From positions 25,144 to 89,143 of the IMG/VR virus record IMGVR_UViG_3300024345_000775: a DNA stretch of 64,000 nt; one strand, given 5' to 3'. The translations under genes and the position numbers were made by a program. Origin of the DNA: a virus. Lineage: Duplodnaviria; Heunggongvirae; Uroviricota; Caudoviricetes. Positions 20,744 through 60,928 of the stretch are shown here, one piece after another (the first letter of the stretch is position 1; every line of letters begins with the position of its first letter). The notes beneath the pieces are model-generated. The model had not been told where the DNA came from. It did not search any database and worked only from the letters and a program-made list of their open reading frames with translations.

Positions 20744-20941
20744 TCAGTCTATATCTAAATTATTTTCTTTTACCAATCTTCTTGCTATCATAAAACATAT
20801 GTTTTTAGGAATACTAATATGATTAGCAGAAGGTTTAGTATAAATGAAATGGTCTCCTTTCTTTCTGTCTAAGGTATAACCATTTTTAAGTAATATCCTT
20901 TCAAAGTCTCGAAATGATATGGATTTAGTTAGTACACTCAA
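20744..20941 (-). CDS. hicA: HicA-like (YcfA family) mRNA interferase toxin homolog
   Basis: 65 aa; FERILLKNGYTLDRKKGDHFIYTKP...ISIPKN matches the HicA consensus (GSHxxF..P, then PxH block). Confidence 0.55.
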   Translation of the reverse strand: MSVLTKSISFRDFERILLKNGYTLDRKKGDHFIYTKPSANHISIPKNICFMIARRLVKENNLDID

Positions 20942-21416
20942 GTGTTTCCAGAATTAAGTTCAATGCAGTTCCTATCATTTCATCTATGTTTTCATTTCTG
21001 GAATTACATACACTACATCTAACTGTATTCTGAATACCTTCACATTTAACACTAATCCAAACTGTACCATTAGGAACCTTACTATTACCACCAGTTTGAC
21101 CTACATACCCTGTAATTCCAACTCCTACATCTGTATTGTAAAGGTTTCTAATTGAACTAGCCATTTCTTGAGCTACTTCAAGACTAACAACATCAAAATT
21201 CTCAATTGTTTTAGGATTTACCCATAAGATTTTCTCTTTAATCTCATTAGTATAGGACACAACACCACCTTTGAGATATTGGGAAGCTCCTTCAACTCTT
21301 GCTAAAGCATTAGATATACCTCCTGCCGTACAAGATTCAGCTGTTGCTATAGTCCAGGACTTACTTTTAAGGAATTCTCCTATTCTTTTTGCAGTTAATA
21401 AATCAGCACCTTTCAT
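20925..21416 (-). CDS. pncC: CinA C-terminal domain / NMN amidohydrolase PncC
   Basis: TIATAESCTAGGISNALARVEGASQYLKGGVVSYTNEIK ... ITGYVGQTGG matches CinA_C (TAESCTGG, GGVVSYS, TGIAGP blocks). Confidence 0.7.
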   Translation of the reverse strand: MKGADLLTAKRIGEFLKSKSWTIATAESCTAGGISNALARVEGASQYLKGGVVSYTNEIKEKILWVNPKTIENFDVVSLEVAQEMASSIRNLYNTDVGVGITGYVGQTGGNSKVPNGTVWISVKCEGIQNTVRCSVCNSRNENIDEMIGTALNLILETLECTN

Positions 21417-27750: not shown

Positions 27751-27755
27751 AATTG

Positions 27756-27815
27756 TAGCACCTATGGGACTTGAACCCACACAGCCATCACTGGCCACTA
27801 GATTTTCTTACTACT
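27756..27815 (-). ncRNA. tRNA-like 3' fragment (T-arm + acceptor 3' strand, possible long variable arm), no 5' partner found
   Basis: Minus-strand reads ...GGCCAGTGATGGCTGTGTGGGTTCAAGTCCCATAGGTGCTA: canonical T-loop TTCAAGT with 5-bp stem, 7-nt acceptor-like 3' strand. No complementary 5' acceptor strand or D-arm within 250 nt. Confidence 0.35.
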
Positions 27816-28340
27816 CTATGTTTCCATAGCCAAATAACTAGAACGATTGCATGTTCACCTAGCTCGTTTTGCATGGCTGTAAACTAATTATTTGTTGTAG
27901 TCTGGACTCTATCTTAACCTTATTAGAATCTTGCAAGATGTAAATTAGATGTTCACTGACCTAGCGGTTTACCCAGAATGCATATGGTTCTCTAATTTAC
28001 AATTCTAACTTAGGTTCCTCCTGTATAGTCTCTACACACTGTCTATTATCTCAATTCTTTCAGGATGACATATCATCAGTCTCTTCTTCCATTTTATTGA
28101 GACCTATCATTGAGTTTTAACATTGGCTCGGTATTAACATATTAGAAAAAGAAAAACTCAGCGAGGATGCAGGATTGTCCAGAGATTCGTGAAATCTTCT
28201 TCAAAACTTACACTTTCTTTTTTATTCTAACTTAGTCTTCACCGAATTAGGGAGGTTCTACTCTATAAGTTTCTTTATAAGCACTCAAATTATAGATAAA
28301 GTCTAGCGCGTCTGCCAATTTCGCCAAGGTGCCCTGTAAC

Positions 28341-37842: not shown

Positions 37843-38315
37843 GGTACAAAACTCCTAATTAGTTCATAATGTCCAAAAGCCCAATCATACTCACCTGCTT
37901 TAGCTACTGGTATCCACATAACTTCATCTACCTCATCTGGTTCACAATGCTCTTTAGATAACATCTTCACAGCAGGTGAATCAGAACCAAGATATGCAGT
38001 AAATTTTACTGTTAAGTTTTGTCTACCTTCAGGTACATCATCTATACCTGCAAATTGAAGTTTATCAGCAGGTACAAGAACTCCTGTTTCCTCATAAACT
38101 TCTCTTATAATAGCTGTTTTGAGGGTTTCATCATAATCTAGGTATCCACAAGGACAAACCCATTTACCAACATTATCAGGACAACCTGGTCCTCTCTTAT
38201 TTGCAAGAACTAACCAATTTCCTTGACTATCTTTGGTGAAGATGAAACCTGCAACTGCTACAGACCTACTTATCCAGTAGGTTTTTCCTTCATGTTCTAC
38301 TGGAAAATTTCTCAT
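37839..38315 (-). CDS. Nudix hydrolase
   Basis: Complete Nudix box GYLDYDETLKTAIIREVYEETGV (Gx5Ex7REVxEExGV). Confidence 0.8.
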   Translation of the reverse strand: MRNFPVEHEGKTYWISRSVAVAGFIFTKDSQGNWLVLANKRGPGCPDNVGKWVCPCGYLDYDETLKTAIIREVYEETGVLVPADKLQFAGIDDVPEGRQNLTVKFTAYLGSDSPAVKMLSKEHCEPDEVDEVMWIPVAKAGEYDWAFGHYELIRSFVP

Positions 38316-39493
38316 AGACCTAATTTATAAATAGCAGTTTTTACTTCCTCATCTGCTCCCATTACTTTACCAATGTCATCAGAAATCTTTACACAATTTA
38401 CCCATTCTTGTCTTGGGTTCATTCTGCAATGCATTAACTTCATGACAATATTTCTAGGCTGTACACCTTCAATATCATTGGTAAGATTAGTGCCTATACC
38501 AAAGGAAGCTTTTATCTTTCCTTTACAGTATTCAGCAATTTGAGCAGCTTTTGGAAAATCCAAAGCATTAGAGAACACTATAGTTTTTGTGAGTGGGTTG
38601 ATACCTAACTCATCATATCTAACTAGTGCTCTCTCAACAAAGTCTTTCTCATCTCCAGAATCTTGTCTTATACCATCAAACAATTTTGCATGTTGTAAAG
38701 AAAAATTCTTGAAAAAGACTTTAGAAGTATAGGTATCAGTTAAAGCAATACCAAGATTGCCATCATAAACCTTTACCCAGTTTTTATATGCCATGTAGTT
38801 AGCCTCATTGTAACCATACATAGCACCATGAAACATTACCCATTCATGTGCTACAGTTCCAATAGGTTTCATGTCATATTTCATTGCAAGATGTACATTT
38901 GAAGTACCGACGCAGGATGTAGAGTTCTTACAAACAGCTACAACTGTATCTTGTACTTCATAACTATATCTTCTTCTGGTACCAAACTCAGAGAATTTAA
39001 ATCCTGCTTCTTCAGCAATCTTACATTTCTCTTCAGTTTTTCTACATATCTCTTGATACTGGTCAACAGTTAGAGATTTACCATAGATTTTATAGTATGT
39101 TTCTGCAACTGTATAGAGAATAGGTACCTCATACAGAGTAACTTTATAAAGTTTATCTGTAACTTCAATCTTCAACTCACCATCTTTCTCAAGGGAAAGT
39201 TTAATTAAGTTTGGATTAAAATAGAAAGACTCTAACCATTCCCAATACCACTCAGGAATGTATGGTATGTTTTGTACACACCATTGTCTCTCTGCATTAG
39301 ACAACATTCTTTCTGCCAGTCTATGTAACTCTTGTTGCAAAGCGGTTACAAATTTAGCAGTATACTCTGTTTTACCTCTATCACAGAAAACAAATGTACC
39401 CTCTGCTTCAGGAAATAACTTCATATAAGCATAGCTCATGCTAAACTTATAGAGGTCATTATCCAACATACTTGCAGGGTTTATTGCTACCAT
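38312..39493 (-). CDS. pncB: type II phosphoribosyltransferase, nicotinate PRTase (PncB)-like / possibly NAMPT-like
   Basis: N-terminus MLDNDLYKFSMSYAYMKLFP...FVFCDR parallels PncB LDTDAYKLHM...FRCR; 393 aa. Confidence 0.65.
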   Translation of the reverse strand: MVAINPASMLDNDLYKFSMSYAYMKLFPEAEGTFVFCDRGKTEYTAKFVTALQQELHRLAERMLSNAERQWCVQNIPYIPEWYWEWLESFYFNPNLIKLSLEKDGELKIEVTDKLYKVTLYEVPILYTVAETYYKIYGKSLTVDQYQEICRKTEEKCKIAEEAGFKFSEFGTRRRYSYEVQDTVVAVCKNSTSCVGTSNVHLAMKYDMKPIGTVAHEWVMFHGAMYGYNEANYMAYKNWVKVYDGNLGIALTDTYTSKVFFKNFSLQHAKLFDGIRQDSGDEKDFVERALVRYDELGINPLTKTIVFSNALDFPKAAQIAEYCKGKIKASFGIGTNLTNDIEGVQPRNIVMKLMHCRMNPRQEWVNCVKISDDIGKVMGADEEVKTAIYKLGL

Positions 39494-40574: not shown

Positions 40575-41126
40575 TCAAATAATGTTTATGTGGCAGCTTC
40601 TCATTGTCTCAATAGCTGCCTCTTTCTTTTCAGGAGTTACACCTGCTGTCAGTCCTTCATAGACATACACTTCTGAATTAGGGTATAATGTCTTGAGAAC
40701 AAGAGCATTGGTAACAACACAAATATCAGTACAGAATCCTACTAAATAGAACTCTCTTATTTCTGACTTATCTGAACCAATTATTTGTTCCCAATTGTTA
40801 TAACCAAATGTATGTTTGTTTATAAACTTTTTAGGAACTTGACAATTGTCAAGAGCTTCCATAATATCATCTCTTAGACACCAACCAGCAGTTTCACATA
40901 TACAATGTAAAACAGGTAAATGTTTACCTTCTACTGTGACATCATAAGATTGCCTATAATGAGTATCTCTTGTAGCAAGAATATAGTCAAAACCTTTTTC
41001 AGAAATAAGCTCAGGTAATGTTTTAGCAATGTCTTTTGCAATTGCAATAGACTCTTTATTTGCCAAAACACCACCTTGTGCACAGAAATCATTTTGACAA
41101 TCAATCAAAATAAGAACCTTTCTCAT
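40575..41126 (-). CDS. pncA: nicotinamidase PncA (isochorismatase family)
   Basis: N-terminus KVLILIDCQNDFCAQGG matches PncA LLLVDLQNDFCAGG with catalytic Asp; later Cys in ICVVTNA. Confidence 0.75.
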   Translation of the reverse strand: MRKVLILIDCQNDFCAQGGVLANKESIAIAKDIAKTLPELISEKGFDYILATRDTHYRQSYDVTVEGKHLPVLHCICETAGWCLRDDIMEALDNCQVPKKFINKHTFGYNNWEQIIGSDKSEIREFYLVGFCTDICVVTNALVLKTLYPNSEVYVYEGLTAGVTPEKKEAAIETMRSCHINII

Positions 41127-41968
41127 TGGAATCTTGGGTCTTTAGCCATACCTAGAGACATTATCTCTACATTGGTAGGCTTTTCAGTTAAGTCAAACAA
41201 CATTTCAATTTCAGGCCAGAAGCAAGGCATACTTGCCATTCTATAAATCTTGAACTTGTTTGCTTCAAACTTTTTGTTAATCTTTTCAATTACTTCAGCA
41301 CTTCCTTCACCTTCTCTGATATAGGTGTCTATATCTTTGTAAGTGATTCCAAGTGTTTGTTCATCAGATGTACCAACAAGTCCATCTTCAGGAACTTTCT
41401 CAACAAGTTCAGCAGGAAGTCCAAGTTCATGTCCAATAGCTTTTACTTCTTGTACAGTAAGCATACATAATGGTGATACATCTCCTGCACTATCTCCATC
41501 AACAGTTGCATAACCAACCCAGTCTTCAGATAAGTTAGAAGTGTTAATCAATCTGCCATTATTTGCTTGTGCTACATATCTTAACATAGTCATCCTAATT
41601 CTAGGAGCTAAGTTAATTCTTGCTTGCTCAGTTACTTCATTAAGAGTATTGTGTACATTTGCCATCTTATATCTATCCTGGAATTCTTCAAAGATAGTCC
41701 CAATAGGAATAGACAGGTTCTTGATTCCAAGAGTTTCACACACTTTCTGTGCTATATTGAAATCATGTTGAACACCATTTGGCAACAATACACCTATGAC
41801 TCTTTCAGCACCTAAAGCTTTTACACAGAGTGCTGCTGCAATAGTAGAGTCTTTACCTCCTGATATACCTATTACAGCATTACATCCTGGTCCATTTTGT
41901 TCAAACCAAGATTGTAAATACTTTATAAGAGCTTCAGTTGTTTCTTTAGCTAAAAACCTATATTTCAT
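41123..41968 (-). CDS. nadE: NH3-dependent NAD+ synthetase NadE
   Basis: PP-loop GISGGKDSTIAAAL (SGGxDS), 281 aa. Confidence 0.8.
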   Translation of the reverse strand: MKYRFLAKETTEALIKYLQSWFEQNGPGCNAVIGISGGKDSTIAAALCVKALGAERVIGVLLPNGVQHDFNIAQKVCETLGIKNLSIPIGTIFEEFQDRYKMANVHNTLNEVTEQARINLAPRIRMTMLRYVAQANNGRLINTSNLSEDWVGYATVDGDSAGDVSPLCMLTVQEVKAIGHELGLPAELVEKVPEDGLVGTSDEQTLGITYKDIDTYIREGEGSAEVIEKINKKFEANKFKIYRMASMPCFWPEIEMLFDLTEKPTNVEIMSLGMAKDPRFQ

Positions 41969-44555: not shown

Positions 44556-45004
44556 TTGTTTAAAAATTCTTGTACAACTTCTGCAACTAATTTGCCATCA
44601 GCATTAGGAAGTGAACCTTTTATTGTTTTGATAATGACACCCATGTTCTTCTTTACAGGCTCAAAACCATCTTGTCCAATTACATCATTGAAACATTTCA
44701 AAATGTCTTCCCTAGTTGCTTCTACTGGTAAAAACTCTTTAAGAACTTTAAGTTGTGCTTCTTCTGCCTCAACTAAATCCATTCTATTAGCCTGTTTAAA
44801 TTGCTCAATAGAATCCTCTCTTTGTTTTACCATTTTCTTGATGATTTGAATTTCTACTTCATCAGTAAATGGTTTATTAACATTTTCTTTCTGAGTTCTC
44901 CATAATAAGAAAGCAGCTTTAATTGCTCTTAAAGCCTCTTTTCTTACATTCTCATGAGACTTCATAGCCTCCATGATAAGTTTATCAATTTGATTATTTA
45001 TCAT
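44552..45004 (-). CDS. YqeY/GatB C-terminal-like domain protein
   Basis: 150 aa; pattern ALRAIKAAF...TDEVEIQIIKKMVKQREDSIEQFKQANRMDLVEAEEAQLKVLKEFLP...ADGKLVAEVVQEFL follows the YqeY/GatB_Yqey consensus. Confidence 0.6.
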   Translation of the reverse strand: MINNQIDKLIMEAMKSHENVRKEALRAIKAAFLLWRTQKENVNKPFTDEVEIQIIKKMVKQREDSIEQFKQANRMDLVEAEEAQLKVLKEFLPVEATREDILKCFNDVIGQDGFEPVKKNMGVIIKTIKGSLPNADGKLVAEVVQEFLNK

Positions 45005-46212
45005 TGCTCTGCTGCTTTAAAATTATATATAGGTTTAATAATATCTACAACATCTACAGTATCTTTGATACACTCCATGATTTCATCCATCGGTTTATAT
45101 ACCATAGGTGCTTCATCAATAGTATCTTTAGTTGCTGTAGTTGTATAAATACCTTTCATTGCTTCAATAAAGTCCTCTTCTTTAAGACTTTCTTTTGCTT
45201 TCTTTCTAGACATAAGTCTACCTGCTCCATGAGGTGCAGAATACAACCAATCAAGATTACCTTTACCTATACAGATAAGAGAACCATCTCTCATGTTAAT
45301 AGGAATAATAAGCTTTTCTCCATTAAGTGCACTCACAGCACCTTTTCTAAGAATCTTATGTGGTAAATCAATATAATTATGAATAGTTGTAAAAGATTTA
45401 TCATGTCCTTCTAAGAAATCAGAAAGAAGATTAGAAAGTCCTAAGAAATCAAGAATTCTAATAGCAATTGCTCTTCTATTACAAGAAGCATATCCTTGAC
45501 ATAATCTCATATCATTAAGATAATCCTCAAGGTCTTTACCTTCAAGATATGCCAATTCAGCATTGAAAGGTGATTGAGTTGCTTTAATTTGTGCAAGAGT
45601 AGCATTGATTTCAGACTGTCTTCCTTGTTCTTTAAGACTGTTAATAATTTCTATAAAATCAGTTCTCTTTGCTTTACAACTCTTTATAGCTTTTTCTTGA
45701 TAATACTTACATACTCTTACACCAAGATTTCTACTACCAGTATGAATTACAAGAAATTTTTCATCATTTTCATTTATATCAACTTCAATAAAATGATTAC
45801 CTCCTCCAAGACTACCAATAGACTTTAAAGCCATATCAGCATCTATAACTTCTTGACATTTAAATTGAGTAAGTGTACTAGGATGATAAAAACTTTTACC
45901 AAGAAACTGTTCATTGATATTGAATCCAGAAGGTATTTCAGTTTTAATGAAATTATCTAGAGCTGCTAAATCAATCTCAATATTACCTAAAGGAACAACC
46001 AACATTCCACATCCTATATCTACTCCAACTGTATTAGGTACAACTCTATCTTTAATACCTATTACAGTACCAATTGTACATCCTGCACCTGCATGACAAT
46101 CAGGCATTATTCTTACAGGACATTCTCCATAAGCATCAGATAAAGACATGTTTTGAATTTGTAACATTGCCTCATCTTCAACTGTTTTTGCATATATTTT
46201 TACATTTTTCAT
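45001..46212 (-). CDS. rtcB: RtcB RNA 3'-phosphate/2',3'-cyclic-phosphate ligase
   Basis: MPDCHAGAGCTIG, GGGNHFIEV and SAPHGAGR, the three RtcB metal/GTP-binding signatures; 403 aa. Confidence 0.85.
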   Translation of the reverse strand: MKNVKIYAKTVEDEAMLQIQNMSLSDAYGECPVRIMPDCHAGAGCTIGTVIGIKDRVVPNTVGVDIGCGMLVVPLGNIEIDLAALDNFIKTEIPSGFNINEQFLGKSFYHPSTLTQFKCQEVIDADMALKSIGSLGGGNHFIEVDINENDEKFLVIHTGSRNLGVRVCKYYQEKAIKSCKAKRTDFIEIINSLKEQGRQSEINATLAQIKATQSPFNAELAYLEGKDLEDYLNDMRLCQGYASCNRRAIAIRILDFLGLSNLLSDFLEGHDKSFTTIHNYIDLPHKILRKGAVSALNGEKLIIPINMRDGSLICIGKGNLDWLYSAPHGAGRLMSRKKAKESLKEEDFIEAMKGIYTTTATKDTIDEAPMVYKPMDEIMECIKDTVDVVDIIKPIYNFKAAEQ

Positions 46213-46735: not shown

Positions 46736-46780
46736 CCTCAAGGACCAGTGGACCTACTGGGAGTCGAACCCAGGTCCAAC
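46736..46780 (-). ncRNA. tRNA-like minihelix (T-arm + acceptor-like stem) followed by CUGGUCC motif; candidate tRNA-mimic / Y-RNA-like module
   Basis: Minus strand reads GGACCUGGGUUCGACUCCCAGUAGGUCCACUGGUCCUUGAGG. Canonical T-loop UUCGACU on CUGGG/CCCAG stem stacks on GGACC/GGUCC; no 5' acceptor strand or D-arm nearby. Confidence 0.35.
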
Positions 46781-47293
46781 AATATCAACTAATAGGAAAC
46801 TTTACATGCTTAGTTCTTTTTAATGTGGTTACTTTACCCACAGGGGCTAATTGGTTTGGCAACTAGCCACTCCACCACTTCATTTATACTTTGAAGAAAG
46901 TTAAATGTGTCTTTCCACAATGTCAATTATTTTCTGTTTCCAGGTATAATTACCCAGGTTATGCCATAATAAGCTAGTTTACAGTTAAGTAAGCCTAAGC
47001 TTAGGCAACCAATCTAACAGGTCTTCTTCTGCTAGCATTTATTTTTTGTACCGTAATTTAGAGCAGTACTCTCTTTGCATGTTCCCATTAATCATATAAT
47101 GCTGTCAAAACCAAATAGGCCCTAATAAGAAAGAGGATGAGGTATTAACTCCACCCTCTCCTATTGTAAAAAGGGGAGAAAAAGAGCAAAGTATTTTTCA
47201 GTTATTGGCAAACCATGACGCTAATTATAGAAGTAACTTTACACTGACATCCCCTATGGGAAAAGCAGGAGAAATAATATAGAGTGTTTAAGG

Positions 47294-47432: not shown

Positions 47433-47506
47433 AGTTTCATCCTTGAGTTGAACAAGGTACCCCAAAATTACCAATTTTTGTGCTCTACCAAATGAGCTAA
47501 TAAAAC
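47433..47506 (-). tRNA. tRNA with atypical anticodon arm (8-nt loop ATTGGTAA, or Thr GGT / Pro TGG under alternative pairing)
   Basis: Acceptor GTTTTAT/ATGAAAC, D-arm GCTCATTTGGTAGAGC, T-arm CCTTGTTCAACTCAAGG all canonical. Perfect stem CAAAA/TTTTG encloses 8 nt. Confidence 0.55.
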
Positions 47507-58770: not shown

Positions 58771-59631
58771 TTACTTACCAAGTCCCTGAATCTCTTTGTA
58801 GATACCTGCAAGAGCCTCAGGAACAACTATCTTAAGGTCTGCTATGTGCTGACCCTCAGATGTCTTCCAAGCAGTATATTCAGCATAAGCCTTATCAAAA
58901 GCTTTAGAATACTCAGAATATGCCTTAGCAAACTCATTGTCTTTCTTAGCTTTGTCTGCTTCTACAGCAGAAGTAATCTCATGCTGATACTGGTTAAACT
59001 TAGCCTGATGTTCCCTTTGAGAACCCTGGAGTTCAAAGAACTTCTTATCCACTTCTTCAAGTGAATAAACAGGGTTATAGGTAATAACAGTAATATCCTG
59101 ACCAGTACCTTCTACCTCAATAGGATTAGCAATGACATCAGTAAGATGCTTTCTAGCACTACTATACTGACCAGCAGGATGTACAAATTCACCAATTACA
59201 GATGCATAAGTCTGAGCTTGGAGATAAGCATTAAGCTTATTGATGTCCCAAGACTTAATAACCTGTGCTTCAGTAAGATAAGCTTCCCTAACAGGTCTAG
59301 TAAGTTCTACCTTATTAGCCACACACCAAGCATCAAAATCCATGATGTTGTTAGAAGCATCAGTCTTCTCTTTAAGTGCTTCTCTTAACCAAGCAATAAG
59401 CTGGGTAGCAAGAGCAATCTTATCAAGAACAACACTAATACTAGTAAACTGCTCTCTTGGAGTAGCAACACCAGTCTCATAAGAGTTACCTCCTGCTTGT
59501 GTAGTCTTACCTACAAAGCAAAGATTGTTAAGATACATCTTCTGAGATTGGATAAACTCCTTAGCAAGATTAGCAGTGTGATTAGCACTGGTACTAGTCA
59601 AACCAGTTTGTCCAAAAAATTGTTCTCTCAT
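58771..59631 (-). CDS. hypothetical protein
   Basis: 286 aa, mixed alpha, Lys/Glu-rich C-terminus. Confidence 0.5.
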   Translation of the reverse strand: MREQFFGQTGLTSTSANHTANLAKEFIQSQKMYLNNLCFVGKTTQAGGNSYETGVATPREQFTSISVVLDKIALATQLIAWLREALKEKTDASNNIMDFDAWCVANKVELTRPVREAYLTEAQVIKSWDINKLNAYLQAQTYASVIGEFVHPAGQYSSARKHLTDVIANPIEVEGTGQDITVITYNPVYSLEEVDKKFFELQGSQREHQAKFNQYQHEITSAVEADKAKKDNEFAKAYSEYSKAFDKAYAEYTAWKTSEGQHIADLKIVVPEALAGIYKEIQGLGK

Positions 59632-59715
59632 TGTAGTTTATATACTTTTTAGTAATATAGATTCTGTGAGCACATATCTGTTTTGTTTGTGAGTCTAACC
59701 CCACTCTCACCAAAG

Positions 59716-59786
59716 GAGTATATGAAGGACTTGAACCTCCGACCGCTACATCTCTGTAGTGCTCTACCAACTGAGCTAATATACTC
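59716..59786 (-). ncRNA. tRNA-like RNA lacking an anticodon loop (anticodon arm replaced by 5-bp stem + GAGA tetraloop)
   Basis: Minus strand 5' G-AGTATAT-TA-GCTC-AGTTGGTA-GAGC-A-CTACA-GAGA-TGTAG-CGGTC-GGAGG-TTCAAGT-CCTTC-ATATACT-C 3'. Acceptor, D-arm and T-arm are textbook; region 27-43 is a 14-nt tetraloop hairpin instead of the 17-nt anticodon arm. Confidence 0.5.
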
Positions 59787-60535
59787 TGTTTTTATACATC
59801 CTATAATACCCTAAATCTTAAAGGATGTCGGTTTCCAGTCTGTTAGGGCAGCCAAAACCTAAACTAATCAACTGTTTTGTAAGTTCAATAATAGGATAAA
59901 AACAGCCTCGGATAGTCTAATCCAAAATCTCCTATCAAGTGTAAGTCCTTGCCTACTTATCACAAGCAAGCAAGTTCAATCAAAATGGCTACATTGAATG
60001 AAAAAAGAAAGGTGTGCCTAAACCAATAGACACACCCCTAACAAGCTCTAGTTAAACTAGAACTAGAATCATAGGTCCAAATATAGAACATGATACCAAA
60101 GCTACCAAAAGTAATATCATATCCCAATAAGAGAGGTGAATTACTTTAGCACCATTAGTACTGAAAATACTTGTACCAATAAGATGGAAAAATACCTTGT
60201 AATCTCCAATCTCTATAATAGTATTATAATGAGTACAACCCAAAACAATACATAAGAAGATTAAGAGAAGAAAGGCAATAATGCACAAGATTACACCAAG
60301 ACTAAACATGACTATTCACAATTTGAATATTCTTGAGTTCTAATAACCTTTCCATTACCCATAGAAGACCAATAAGTCTTCTTATAAGCAAATCTTCCAG
60401 GCCTGCCAGTCTTAACACAATGTTCAAGAACTGTACCTTTGGGCATAGTAGACATATACCCAATAGGATTAACAGGCATAGCAACTTTCTGGTTTATTCT
60501 GCCATGTCTACAAAGCAGAGTACTTCCAGTTGCCA

Positions 60536-60928
60536 TTAGTCAATCATCTCATAAGTGTAAGACTTACCTCCAAGGGAAGAGGAAATTTGTTCCAAATGGA
60601 ACTCAAGCCTCTGCTTCGGCTCTAACTTGTTCCACCAAACTCTCTTGGCTGCTTGTTGCTTGGTCTCAAATTTCTCCTTTGGTACAGGAGCAATATAAGC
60701 CCGATAATTCTCCTCAGAAATTCTGACCTTCTGAATACACTGAGTCTGAGGTCTCTCATTGTACTTCTCCTGAGAGTGATAATACCCTTTAGGAAGTGGT
60801 CCTTTACCAAGCCACATAGGTGACTTCTTCATTCGGTTCTTTTCTTTCTTAGAACCTGCATTGCTCACTGCTCCAGTGAGGCCTCCCTCCAAGTTAATGG
60901 TCAGAAGGACTTTAGTAATTTGTGACAT
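60536..60928 (-). CDS. hypothetical basic protein
   Basis: 130-aa ORF. Confidence 0.4.
   Translation of the reverse strand: MSQITKVLLTINLEGGLTGAVSNAGSKKEKNRMKKSPMWLGKGPLPKGYYHSQEKYNERPQTQCIQKVRISEENYRAYIAPVPKEKFETKQQAAKRVWWNKLEPKQRLEFHLEQISSSLGGKSYTYEMID

What the first reader, a model, noticed from the sequence alone, without database searches (positions are those of the whole stretch)
59716..59786. Textbook tRNA body whose anticodon arm is replaced by a GAGA tetraloop hairpin (anticodon-less tRNA-like RNA)
Read on the minus strand, the acceptor stem (7 bp plus an extra G:C), the D-arm (TAGCTCAGTTGGTAGAGC) and the T-arm (GGAGGTTCAAGTCCTTC) are all canonical. Positions 27-43 are CTACA-GAGA-TGTAG: a 5-bp stem with a 4-nt loop and no anticodon. 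Such an RNA cannot decode. It could still be recognised by CCA-adding enzyme, RNase P, aminoacyl-tRNA synthetases, anticodon nucleases or Ro60-type proteins. That would make it a decoy or mimic in the manner of Y-RNA tRNA-like domains. A decayed tRNA gene is the alternative.
Basis: seen in the sequence. Interest (0 to 1): 0.75.

Follow-up and report, generated by a model that had tools for sequence, protein, structure and literature searches.

The report
Phage tRNA gene lacking an anticodon
A gut phage carries a perfectly tRNA-shaped gene whose anticodon loop is only four bases long, so it cannot read codons; it is most likely a recently disabled tRNA that is still cut out of its transcript, though a role as a tRNA mimic is not excluded.

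Summary
Window 59716-59785 (minus strand) is a 70-nt cloverleaf (Rfam tRNA 53.4 bits). Acceptor stem, D-arm, T-arm and tertiary-pair bases are canonical. The anticodon arm is CUACA-GAGA-UGUAG, and G-1 can pair with C73.

The same short loop occurs in seven independent assemblies of this ~169-kb gut phage. No relative has an intact tRNA there. Relatives at 47-63% protein identity have no tRNA at the site.

This lineage is too shallow to show selection:
- 3 of 70 element positions vary, against 5 of 115 four-fold sites in the neighbouring gene.
- One variant (A:C mismatch) abolishes the predicted tetraloop hairpin in three of the seven assemblies.

In relatives the element ends 2 nt before the ATG of a 119-aa ORF, which the window has mostly lost. 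Other tRNAs in this phage also lie 0-20 nt before start codons.

The phage encodes a Ro60-like TROVE protein, RtcB ligase and a tmRNA. However, the element lacks the defining Y-RNA features. Other phage contigs hold comparable tRNA-like genes with truncated anticodon arms.

Best reading (0.55): a recently disabled tRNA that is still processed like one. A functional tRNA mimic remains possible (about 0.3).

The parts
59716..59785 (-). 70-nt tRNA-like gene. Acceptor 5' strand 59779-59785; D-arm 59761-59776; A26 59760; anticodon-arm remnant CTACA-GAGA-TGTAG 59746-59759 (loop 59751-59754); variable loop CGGTC 59741-59745; T-arm 59724-59740; acceptor 3' strand 59717-59723; discriminator C 59716.
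59786..59786 (-). G at position -1, able to pair with discriminator C73. In this window the combination is otherwise found only in the phage's tRNA-His.
   Evidence: Invariant in all alleles.
59715..59715 (-). C directly after the discriminator, with no encoded CCA. Most of the phage's tRNAs have the same 3' context.
59632..59714 (-). Remnant of the 3' end of a 119-aa ORF. In relatives this ORF starts 2 nt after the element. The window lost about 273 nt between two CTCCT repeats and also has a 1-nt frameshift in an A-run.
   Evidence: A further 19-nt deletion in L154.
58771..59631 (-). 286-aa gene of unknown function, next in the same transcription unit. It served as the anchor for finding relatives.
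59787..59946 (-). Non-coding leader upstream of the element. No convincing promoter was found. It holds complementary boxes CCCTAA / TTAGGG. In L015 about 60 nt of it are replaced, up to 5 nt before the element.
59947..59974 (-). Conserved hairpin CTTGCTTGCTT-GTGA-TAAGTAGGCAAGG, with compensated changes in L010, where a T-run follows it.
60008..60039 (-). Terminator-like hairpin plus T-run after the upstream 85-aa gene. This places the element at the start of a new transcription unit.

Best explanation
The element is a non-decoding derivative of a class-I phage tRNA gene. Its anticodon loop has been reduced from 7 to 4 nt. Most likely this is a recent loss of function, within a phage lineage that differs by only about 4% at neutral sites.

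The acceptor stem, T-arm, D-arm and all tertiary-pair positions are intact. The transcript should therefore still fold into an L-shape, be cut by RNase P at its 5' end, be cut after or near the discriminator at its 3' end, and receive CCA.

It sits at the head of an operon, behind a terminator and 2 nt before the ATG of the next ORF in relatives. Its one predictable remaining activity is therefore punctuation: releasing a nearly leaderless downstream mRNA, as the phage's genuine tRNAs appear to do.

What is shown: the structure, its presence in seven assemblies, its position, and the variation among alleles. What is inferred: transcription, processing, and that the loss is recent and neutral.
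For: - Rfam and ARAGORN recognise a tRNA with 4 nt in place of the anticodon loop.
- The element is restricted to one shallow lineage. Relatives whose 286-aa protein is 47-63% identical have no tRNA at the site, although a distant homologue of the 119-aa ORF persists in L008.
- Variation equals the neutral rate: 3 of 70 variable sites against 5 of 115 four-fold sites in the adjacent gene, and 1-7 variable sites per 71-nt bin in surrounding coding DNA.
- Two of the three changes weaken structure. U-to-C opposite A29 leaves the arm unfolded, and G15-to-U removes the G15:C48 pair.
- tRNA content turns over quickly in this group. L014 has an extra tRNA-Gln, and the flanks of the Met tRNA are swapped. 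A relative carries a tRNA 5'-half relic.
- Punctuation context: the ATG lies 2 nt after the discriminator in L014, L015, L152 and L153. Other tRNAs lie 0-20 nt before start codons. A terminator-like hairpin lies upstream.
Against: - No allele or relative with an intact 7-nt loop was found, so a recent deletion is inferred rather than seen.
- GAGA cannot arise from a canonical loop (U33, purine 37) by one contiguous 3-nt deletion unless the ancestor had an xGA anticodon with G37, or G32. More than one event therefore hit the loop, while the other 63 nt stayed perfect.
- GAGA is a GNRA tetraloop, with a 1 in 32 chance for a random 4-mer.
- Both flanks were rearranged without touching the element. 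The L015 replacement ends 5 nt upstream. The window deletion starts just 3' of it. L154 lost a further 19 nt of the ORF remnant.
- G-1:C73 occurs otherwise only in the phage's tRNA-His.
- Some unrelated phage families of anticodon-truncated tRNA-likes show fully compensated acceptor and T stems.
Confidence: 0.55

Rival explanations
1. The element is a functional tRNA mimic. It is kept because proteins that read the tRNA body rather than the anticodon bind it. It could act as a decoy or competitive inhibitor of host tRNA-targeting defence enzymes, which cannot cut a loop that is missing. Alternatively, it could be the tRNA-like partner of the phage's own Ro60-like/RtcB RNA-repair proteins.
For: - The body is pristine and all tertiary positions are kept.
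- The loop is of GNRA type.
- Flanking rearrangements spare the element.
- The phage encodes a Ro60-like TROVE/vWA protein, RtcB and an RNA-repair HAD domain. No canonical Y-RNA motif was found anywhere in the window's non-coding gaps.
- Cellular Ro60 works with a tRNA-like RNA partner (PMC4201824, PMC7824862).
- Other phage contigs carry tRNA-like genes with 12-16-nt anticodon arms and perfect acceptor and T stems. One has a UUCG loop, one has an A-GAGA-G loop, and one family has three different compensated acceptor stems.
- Phage tRNAs are known counter-defences (PMC11555353, PMC13096335).
Against: - There is no sign of purifying selection beyond the neutral rate.
- The hairpin is lost in three of seven assemblies.
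- The element is about 40 kb from the TROVE gene and lacks a Ro60-binding helix.
- It is absent from deeper relatives.
- No literature precedent was found.
- The IMG/VR set was preselected by pattern, is heterogeneous, and may consist largely of relics.
Confidence: 0.3
2. The element is a processing signal under selection. The cloverleaf is kept only as an RNase P / RNase Z site that frees the downstream ORF as a leaderless mRNA, so the anticodon became dispensable.
For: - The ATG lies 2 nt after the discriminator in four alleles.
- tRNA-Phe, Lys, Glu, Gln, Arg, Pro and Trp lie 0-20 nt before start codons.
- The genes lack Shine-Dalgarno sequences.
- The element keeps the same 'discriminator + C' 3' context as the real tRNAs.
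Against: - The window lineage deleted the ORF that the element would serve, yet kept the element.
- A minihelix would be enough for processing, yet the D-arm and tertiary core are also intact.
- No selection is detectable.
Confidence: 0.1
3. The element is a decoding tRNA with an unusual loop, for example doublet or frameshift decoding through the 6-nt loop AGAGAU that ARAGORN reports.
For: ARAGORN reports a 2-nt anticodon 'ag'.
Against: - There is no U33 and no 7-nt loop.
- The loop closes as a GNRA tetraloop.
- In three of seven assemblies the arm does not fold at all.
- The window's ORFs read through in the standard code, with no need for frameshift decoding.
Confidence: 0.02

Closest known systems
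tRNA pseudogenes or 'undetermined anticodon' tRNA calls in phage genomes
   Same: Clear tRNA ancestry, no usable anticodon, narrow phylogenetic spread, and variation at the neutral rate.
   Different: Everything outside the loop is flawless. The loop is a GNRA tetraloop that a single deletion does not easily produce. No intact orthologue was found.
Bacterial and phage Y RNAs of the YrlA type, partners of Ro60/Rsr (PMC4201824; phage phiLo Yrl1/2, PMC12135203)
   Same: Non-decoding RNA with tRNA-like D-arm, T-arm and acceptor. Some are cut by RNase P and receive CCA. The present phage encodes a Ro60-like protein.
   Different: Y RNAs lie next to the Ro60 gene. Their termini form the Ro60-binding helix with a (GN)CGAA motif, which occupies the place of the anticodon stem. 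Here the termini are a normal acceptor stem, the anticodon stem is capped by 4 nt, no such motif exists, and the TROVE gene is about 40 kb away.
tRNA-like domain of tmRNA
   Same: An acceptor/T-arm mimic without an anticodon arm. The phage has its own tmRNA (46746-47122).
   Different: tmRNA has a degenerate D-loop, pseudoknots and a tag-encoding reading frame. This element is a complete 70-nt cloverleaf.
mascRNA-type tRNA-like small RNAs, and tRNA punctuation of mitochondrial or tRNA-mRNA co-transcripts (from my own knowledge)
   Same: A cloverleaf used as an RNase P/Z cleavage signal that defines the ends of the neighbouring RNA. The anticodon arm is irrelevant.
   Different: These are eukaryotic or organellar systems. 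Processing was not tested here.
Phage tRNAs that neutralise tRNA-cleaving defences (T5 tRNAs against Retron-Eco7, PMC11555353; tRNA-Tyr against Septu, PMC13096335)
   Same: A phage-encoded tRNA-shaped RNA in a phage that also carries RNA-repair genes.
   Different: The known cases are decoding tRNAs that replace cleaved host tRNAs. This one cannot decode.

Membership tests
Decoding tRNA | Cloverleaf with 7-bp acceptor, D-arm with G18G19, T-arm with TTCRA, and tertiary pairs | tested here: met
Decoding tRNA | 7-nt anticodon loop with U33 and a 3-nt anticodon | tested here: not met
   4-nt loop GAGA. ARAGORN gives tRNA-???.
tRNA pseudogene (relic) | Evolves without constraint | tested here: inconclusive
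   3 of 70 variable sites against 5 of 115 four-fold sites. This fits neutrality, but the lineage is too shallow to exclude moderate constraint.
tRNA pseudogene (relic) | An intact orthologue or source tRNA is identifiable | tested here: not met
   None at the site in relatives. No tRNA with the same acceptor stem in IMG/VR. Only unrelated tRNAs share its D-arm and T-arm.
Y RNA (YrlA type) | Encoded next to the Ro60/TROVE gene | tested here: not met
   TROVE gene at 17908-19524 and element at 59716-59785.
Y RNA (YrlA type) | Ro60-binding helix formed by the termini, with a GNCGAA(N)G motif | tested here: not met
   The only motif match on the minus (gene) strand of the window lies in coding sequence at 60620. 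The termini form an acceptor stem.
Y RNA (YrlA type) | tRNA-like D-arm and T-arm | tested here: met
Y RNA (YrlA type) | Bound by Ro60 | not testable with these tools
   Needs RIP or EMSA with the 538-aa protein.
tRNA-His-type acceptor | Encoded G-1 paired with C73 | tested here: met
   Invariant in all alleles.
tRNA-His-type acceptor | GUG anticodon; charged by HisRS | tested here: not met
   There is no anticodon. Charging is not testable here.
GNRA tetraloop hairpin | G-N-R-A loop on a stable stem that is kept among relatives | tested here: inconclusive
   The loop is invariant. The stem carries an A:C mismatch in L014, L015 and L153, with predicted dG of 0.
tmRNA | Tag reading frame and pseudoknots | tested here: not met
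   The element is 70 nt. Rfam assigns it to tRNA, not tmRNA.

The most novel reading that the evidence does not exclude
Tailed phages that carry many tRNAs and RNA-repair genes maintain a class of non-decoding, anticodon-less tRNA mimics. These RNAs keep an intact acceptor stem, T-arm and D-arm, with the anticodon arm capped or truncated. They would act on proteins that read the tRNA body, for example as uncleavable decoys for tRNA-directed defence enzymes, or as the tRNA-like partner of a phage Ro60-like protein. The element in this window would be one member of that class.
Probability: 0.3. Interest if true: 0.8.

Novelty: new member of a known kind. Interest (0 to 1): 0.45.

Why it matters
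Phage tRNAs are now known to be weapons against tRNA-cleaving bacterial defences. A tRNA body that cannot decode, if it is kept on purpose, would be a different kind of counter-measure: a decoy or mimic rather than a spare part. It would also give the poorly understood phage Ro60-like proteins a candidate RNA partner.

If instead it is a relic, it is still useful in two ways. It warns that 'undetermined' tRNA calls in phage genomes are real, reproducible sequences. It also shows how tRNA genes in these phages double as punctuation between genes.

Tried and rejected
- Close DNA matches: none in GenBank phages. Distant matches hit only ordinary tRNA-Ile, Val and other tRNAs.
- IMG/VR: no copy of the element, no close relative of the neighbouring gene, and no tRNA with the same acceptor stem. 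Contigs sharing its D-arm and T-arm are normal tRNA-Thr.
- JGI metagenomes: only normal tRNA-Asn, Val, Thr and Met share the arms.
- Paralogue in the window: the best match is the Met-CAT tRNA at 65% identity, with an almost identical anticodon stem. Its loop CTCATAA cannot give GAGA by deletion.
- Repeats of the leader elsewhere in the window: none.
- Function of the neighbouring proteins (119, 286, 85, 74 and 130 aa): no Pfam or PHROG hit.
- Promoter scan: nothing above shuffled expectation.
- Leader structure: folds differ between the window and L015, with z about -1 to -2. It is not claimed as a structure.
- Selection test in the related L064 phage family: also too shallow.
- Y-RNA motif search: negative.
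- Literature: no description of anticodon-less phage tRNA-likes was found.
- Doublet decoding was rejected, because there is no U33 and the arm is unstable in some alleles.

Full report
**Observation.** On the minus strand, window 59785 to 59716 reads AGTATAT-TA-GCTC-AGTTGGTA-GAGC-A-CTACA-GAGA-TGTAG-CGGTC-GGAGG-TTCAAGT-CCTTC-ATATACT-C.
- G at -1 (59786) faces the discriminator C.
- ARAGORN reports tRNA-???.
- Rfam tRNA gives 53.4 bits (gathering score 29, E=1e-8) and aligns 4 nt where the model has the 7-nt anticodon loop.
- The minimum-energy fold is the cloverleaf with an 8-bp acceptor.
- U8, A14, G15:C48, G18G19, G46 and T54-T55-C56 are all in place.
The RNA cannot decode, which follows from established knowledge of anticodon loops.

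**Genome.** The window is part of a ~169-kb, 33% GC phage contig from gut metagenomes.
- All genes lie on the minus strand.
- It has 12 tRNA calls and a tmRNA, plus an intron-split tRNA-Leu found later.
- The nearest GenBank relatives are uncultured gut phages, at under 40% protein identity.

**Relatives.** The downstream 286-aa protein has a cluster of near-identical copies and a second tier at 63% identity or below.
- In the near-identical cluster, the element is present in seven assemblies.
- Only three positions vary. C13U keeps a G:U pair (L152). G15U occurs in L153. The U opposite A29 becomes C in L014, L015 and L153.
- The GAGA loop, the acceptor stem, the T-arm, G-1 and C73 never vary.
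- In L014, L015, L152 and L153 the ATG of a 119-aa ORF starts 2 nt after the discriminator.
- The window type (also L011, L013, L154) lost about 273 nt of that ORF between two CTCCT repeats. It keeps an 84-nt remnant. L154 lost a further 19 nt of the remnant.
- In the second tier (L005, L008, L010, L030, L032) there is no tRNA or tRNA-like sequence at the site. L008 nevertheless keeps a distant homologue of the 119-aa ORF.
- No intact version was found anywhere.

**Is it under selection?**
- Among the five sequences compared in the test (four distinct alleles of the element), 5 of 115 four-fold degenerate sites of the adjacent gene vary (4.3%). In the element, 3 of 70 vary (4.3%).
- Bins of 71 nt in neighbouring coding DNA have 1-7 variable sites.
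- The 130 nt just upstream are far more variable (15 and 23 sites). This is one replaced patch in L015, ending 5 nt before the element.
- The Met-CAT tRNA shows the same mosaic behaviour. It is 77/77 identical in L014 with an unrelated upstream flank.
- The A:C allele abolishes the predicted hairpin (0 against -3.3 kcal/mol), and the L153 allele folds differently.
- Conservation in relatives therefore carries no weight here. The kind of variation seen looks unconstrained, above all in the anticodon-arm remnant.

**Origin.**
- The body resembles Ile, Val and Met-type class-I tRNAs.
- GAGA cannot be produced from a canonical loop by one contiguous 3-nt deletion, except from an xGA anticodon with G37 or from a loop with G32. 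The change was probably not a single step, which is mild evidence against simple decay (inference).
- In this window, G-1:C73 is otherwise seen only in tRNA-His. It predicts an 8-bp acceptor and possible recognition by HisRS. This rests on established identity rules and is untested.

**Operon context.**
- A terminator-like hairpin follows the upstream 85-aa gene, and a second conserved hairpin follows it.
- The element then sits about 160 nt further on, directly before the next ORF.
- Elsewhere in the window, start codons follow tRNA 3' ends at 0-20 nt for Phe, Lys, Glu, Gln, Arg-TCT, Pro and Trp.
- Most tRNAs share the 'discriminator + C' trailer that the element also has.
- This fits tRNA-type processing that releases short-leader mRNAs (inference).

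- About half of them (34 of 61) have 7/7 acceptor pairs, and all but one have 5/5 T-stem pairs. Their 'anticodon arms' are 12-16 nt.
- ARAGORN also calls several tRNA-???: L137 (CTTGA-TTCG-TCAAG), L136 (AATG-AGAGAG-CATT), and L040/L141 (G-1 and C73, as here).
- One family (ACCGCRCCNGGAGGTATG) has three different, fully compensated acceptor stems and a compensated T stem.
- Another family lies inside a tRNA array of phages that share RtcB and 3-5 other proteins with this window. That family is again too shallow for a selection test.
- The set was preselected and is heterogeneous. It shows recurrence, not function.

**RNA-repair context.**
- ORF 17908-19524 is a Ro60-like TROVE/vWA protein. The Pfam hits are weak. 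The match to phage phiLo Ro60 structures 9KOP and 9L5Y has E=8e-9 over residues 26-463.
- ORF 45001-46212 is RtcB (212 bits). ORF 11108-11869 carries an RNA-repair HAD domain.
- Ro60 proteins work with Y RNAs that carry a tRNA-like module and are encoded next to the gene. These RNAs have a (GN)CGAA motif in the helix formed by their termini (PMC4201824, PMC12135203, PMC7824862).
- No such motif lies in any non-coding gap of the window. The element has normal tRNA termini. It is therefore not a Y RNA by definition, although a looser partnership cannot be excluded.

**Verdict.**
- Most likely (0.55) this is a recently disabled tRNA that is still shaped and processed like one, and that serves at most as punctuation.
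- A maintained tRNA mimic is the main rival (0.3).
- A selected processing signal (0.1) and unusual decoding (0.02) follow.
- The decisive data are transcript ends and abundance, protein binding, and deeper sampling of the lineage.

Noticed in passing
window 27755-28333 (-), intron 27807-28298: A tRNA-Leu(UAA) gene is split between nt 34 and 35 by a 492-nt intron. The joined exons give a clean ARAGORN tRNA-Leu(taa). The intron matches the Rfam group I model below threshold (34 bits, E=7e-7 in a local search). Default tRNA and Rfam scans missed it.
   Followed up: partly
window 17908-19524 (-): A 538-aa Ro60-like TROVE + vWA protein, homologous to the solved Ro60 of Thermus phage phiLo (9KOP, E=8e-9). 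No Y-RNA-type GNCGAA motif lies in any non-coding gap of the window, so its RNA partner is unknown.
   Followed up: partly
window ~51301-51439 (-): A second odd tRNA-like RNA. It has a 7-bp acceptor-like stem GGGGAGA/TCTCCCC, a perfect T-arm CCTGG-TTCGAGT-CCAGG and a discriminator A, but about 95 nt of other hairpins where the D-arm and anticodon arm should be. It has no Rfam or ARAGORN hit, and a 71-aa ORF overlaps it.
   Followed up: partly
window 45001-46212, 11108-11869, 15852-16565 (-): RNA-repair genes: an RtcB ligase (212 bits), a HAD domain of 'Swiss Army Knife' RNA-repair proteins, and a metallophosphatase. They suggest pressure from RNA-cleaving host defences.
   Followed up: no
window 38312-39493, 41123-41968, 20925-21416 (-): NAD salvage and synthesis genes (NAPRTase, NAD synthase, PncC-type deamidase), as seen in phages that counter NAD-depleting defences.
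   Followed up: no
window 46746-47122 (-): A phage-encoded tmRNA (93 bits) with tag peptide ASRRRPVRLVA, next to three tRNAs and RtcB. Relatives L005 and L030 also carry tmRNAs with different tags.
   Followed up: no
window tRNAs at 16534, 22686, 32656, 34389, 35257, 48427, 52055: Start codons follow the tRNA 3' ends at 0-20 nt without Shine-Dalgarno sequences, so tRNAs appear to punctuate the operons. Only tRNA-His encodes CCA. The others have the discriminator followed by C.
   Followed up: partly
window 47433-47506 (-): ARAGORN calls tRNA-Thr(GGT), but Rfam's tRNA model does not report it even at E<=1.
   Followed up: no
window 59787-59870 (-); L015 1483-1572: Complementary boxes CCCTAA(C) and (G)TTAGGG in the leader are kept in L015, although the sequence between and after them is replaced. 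Predicted folds differ between the two, so any structure is unproven.
   Followed up: partly
L030 535-669: A relative carries a tRNA 5'-half relic (GGTCTCT-TA-GCTCAGTTGGTAGAG, then AT-rich sequence). A 78-nt tRNA-like follows it, with good acceptor and T-arms but an aberrant D/anticodon region (Rfam tRNA 32.7 bits, no ARAGORN call).
   Followed up: no
L008 202-448: A group I intron (Rfam 99.6 bits) in a relative of this phage, near the syntenic locus.
   Followed up: no
L043, L073, L094, L140 (IMG/VR): A family of CCA-ending tRNA-like genes with a conserved middle ACCGCRCCNGGAGGTATG in place of the anticodon arm. It has three different fully compensated acceptor stems, so it is likely a functional, undescribed RNA.
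   Followed up: partly
window 48572-50452 (-): A 626-aa flotillin / SPFH (Band 7) family protein in a phage, shared with phage csAssE-Sib at 39% identity.
   Followed up: no
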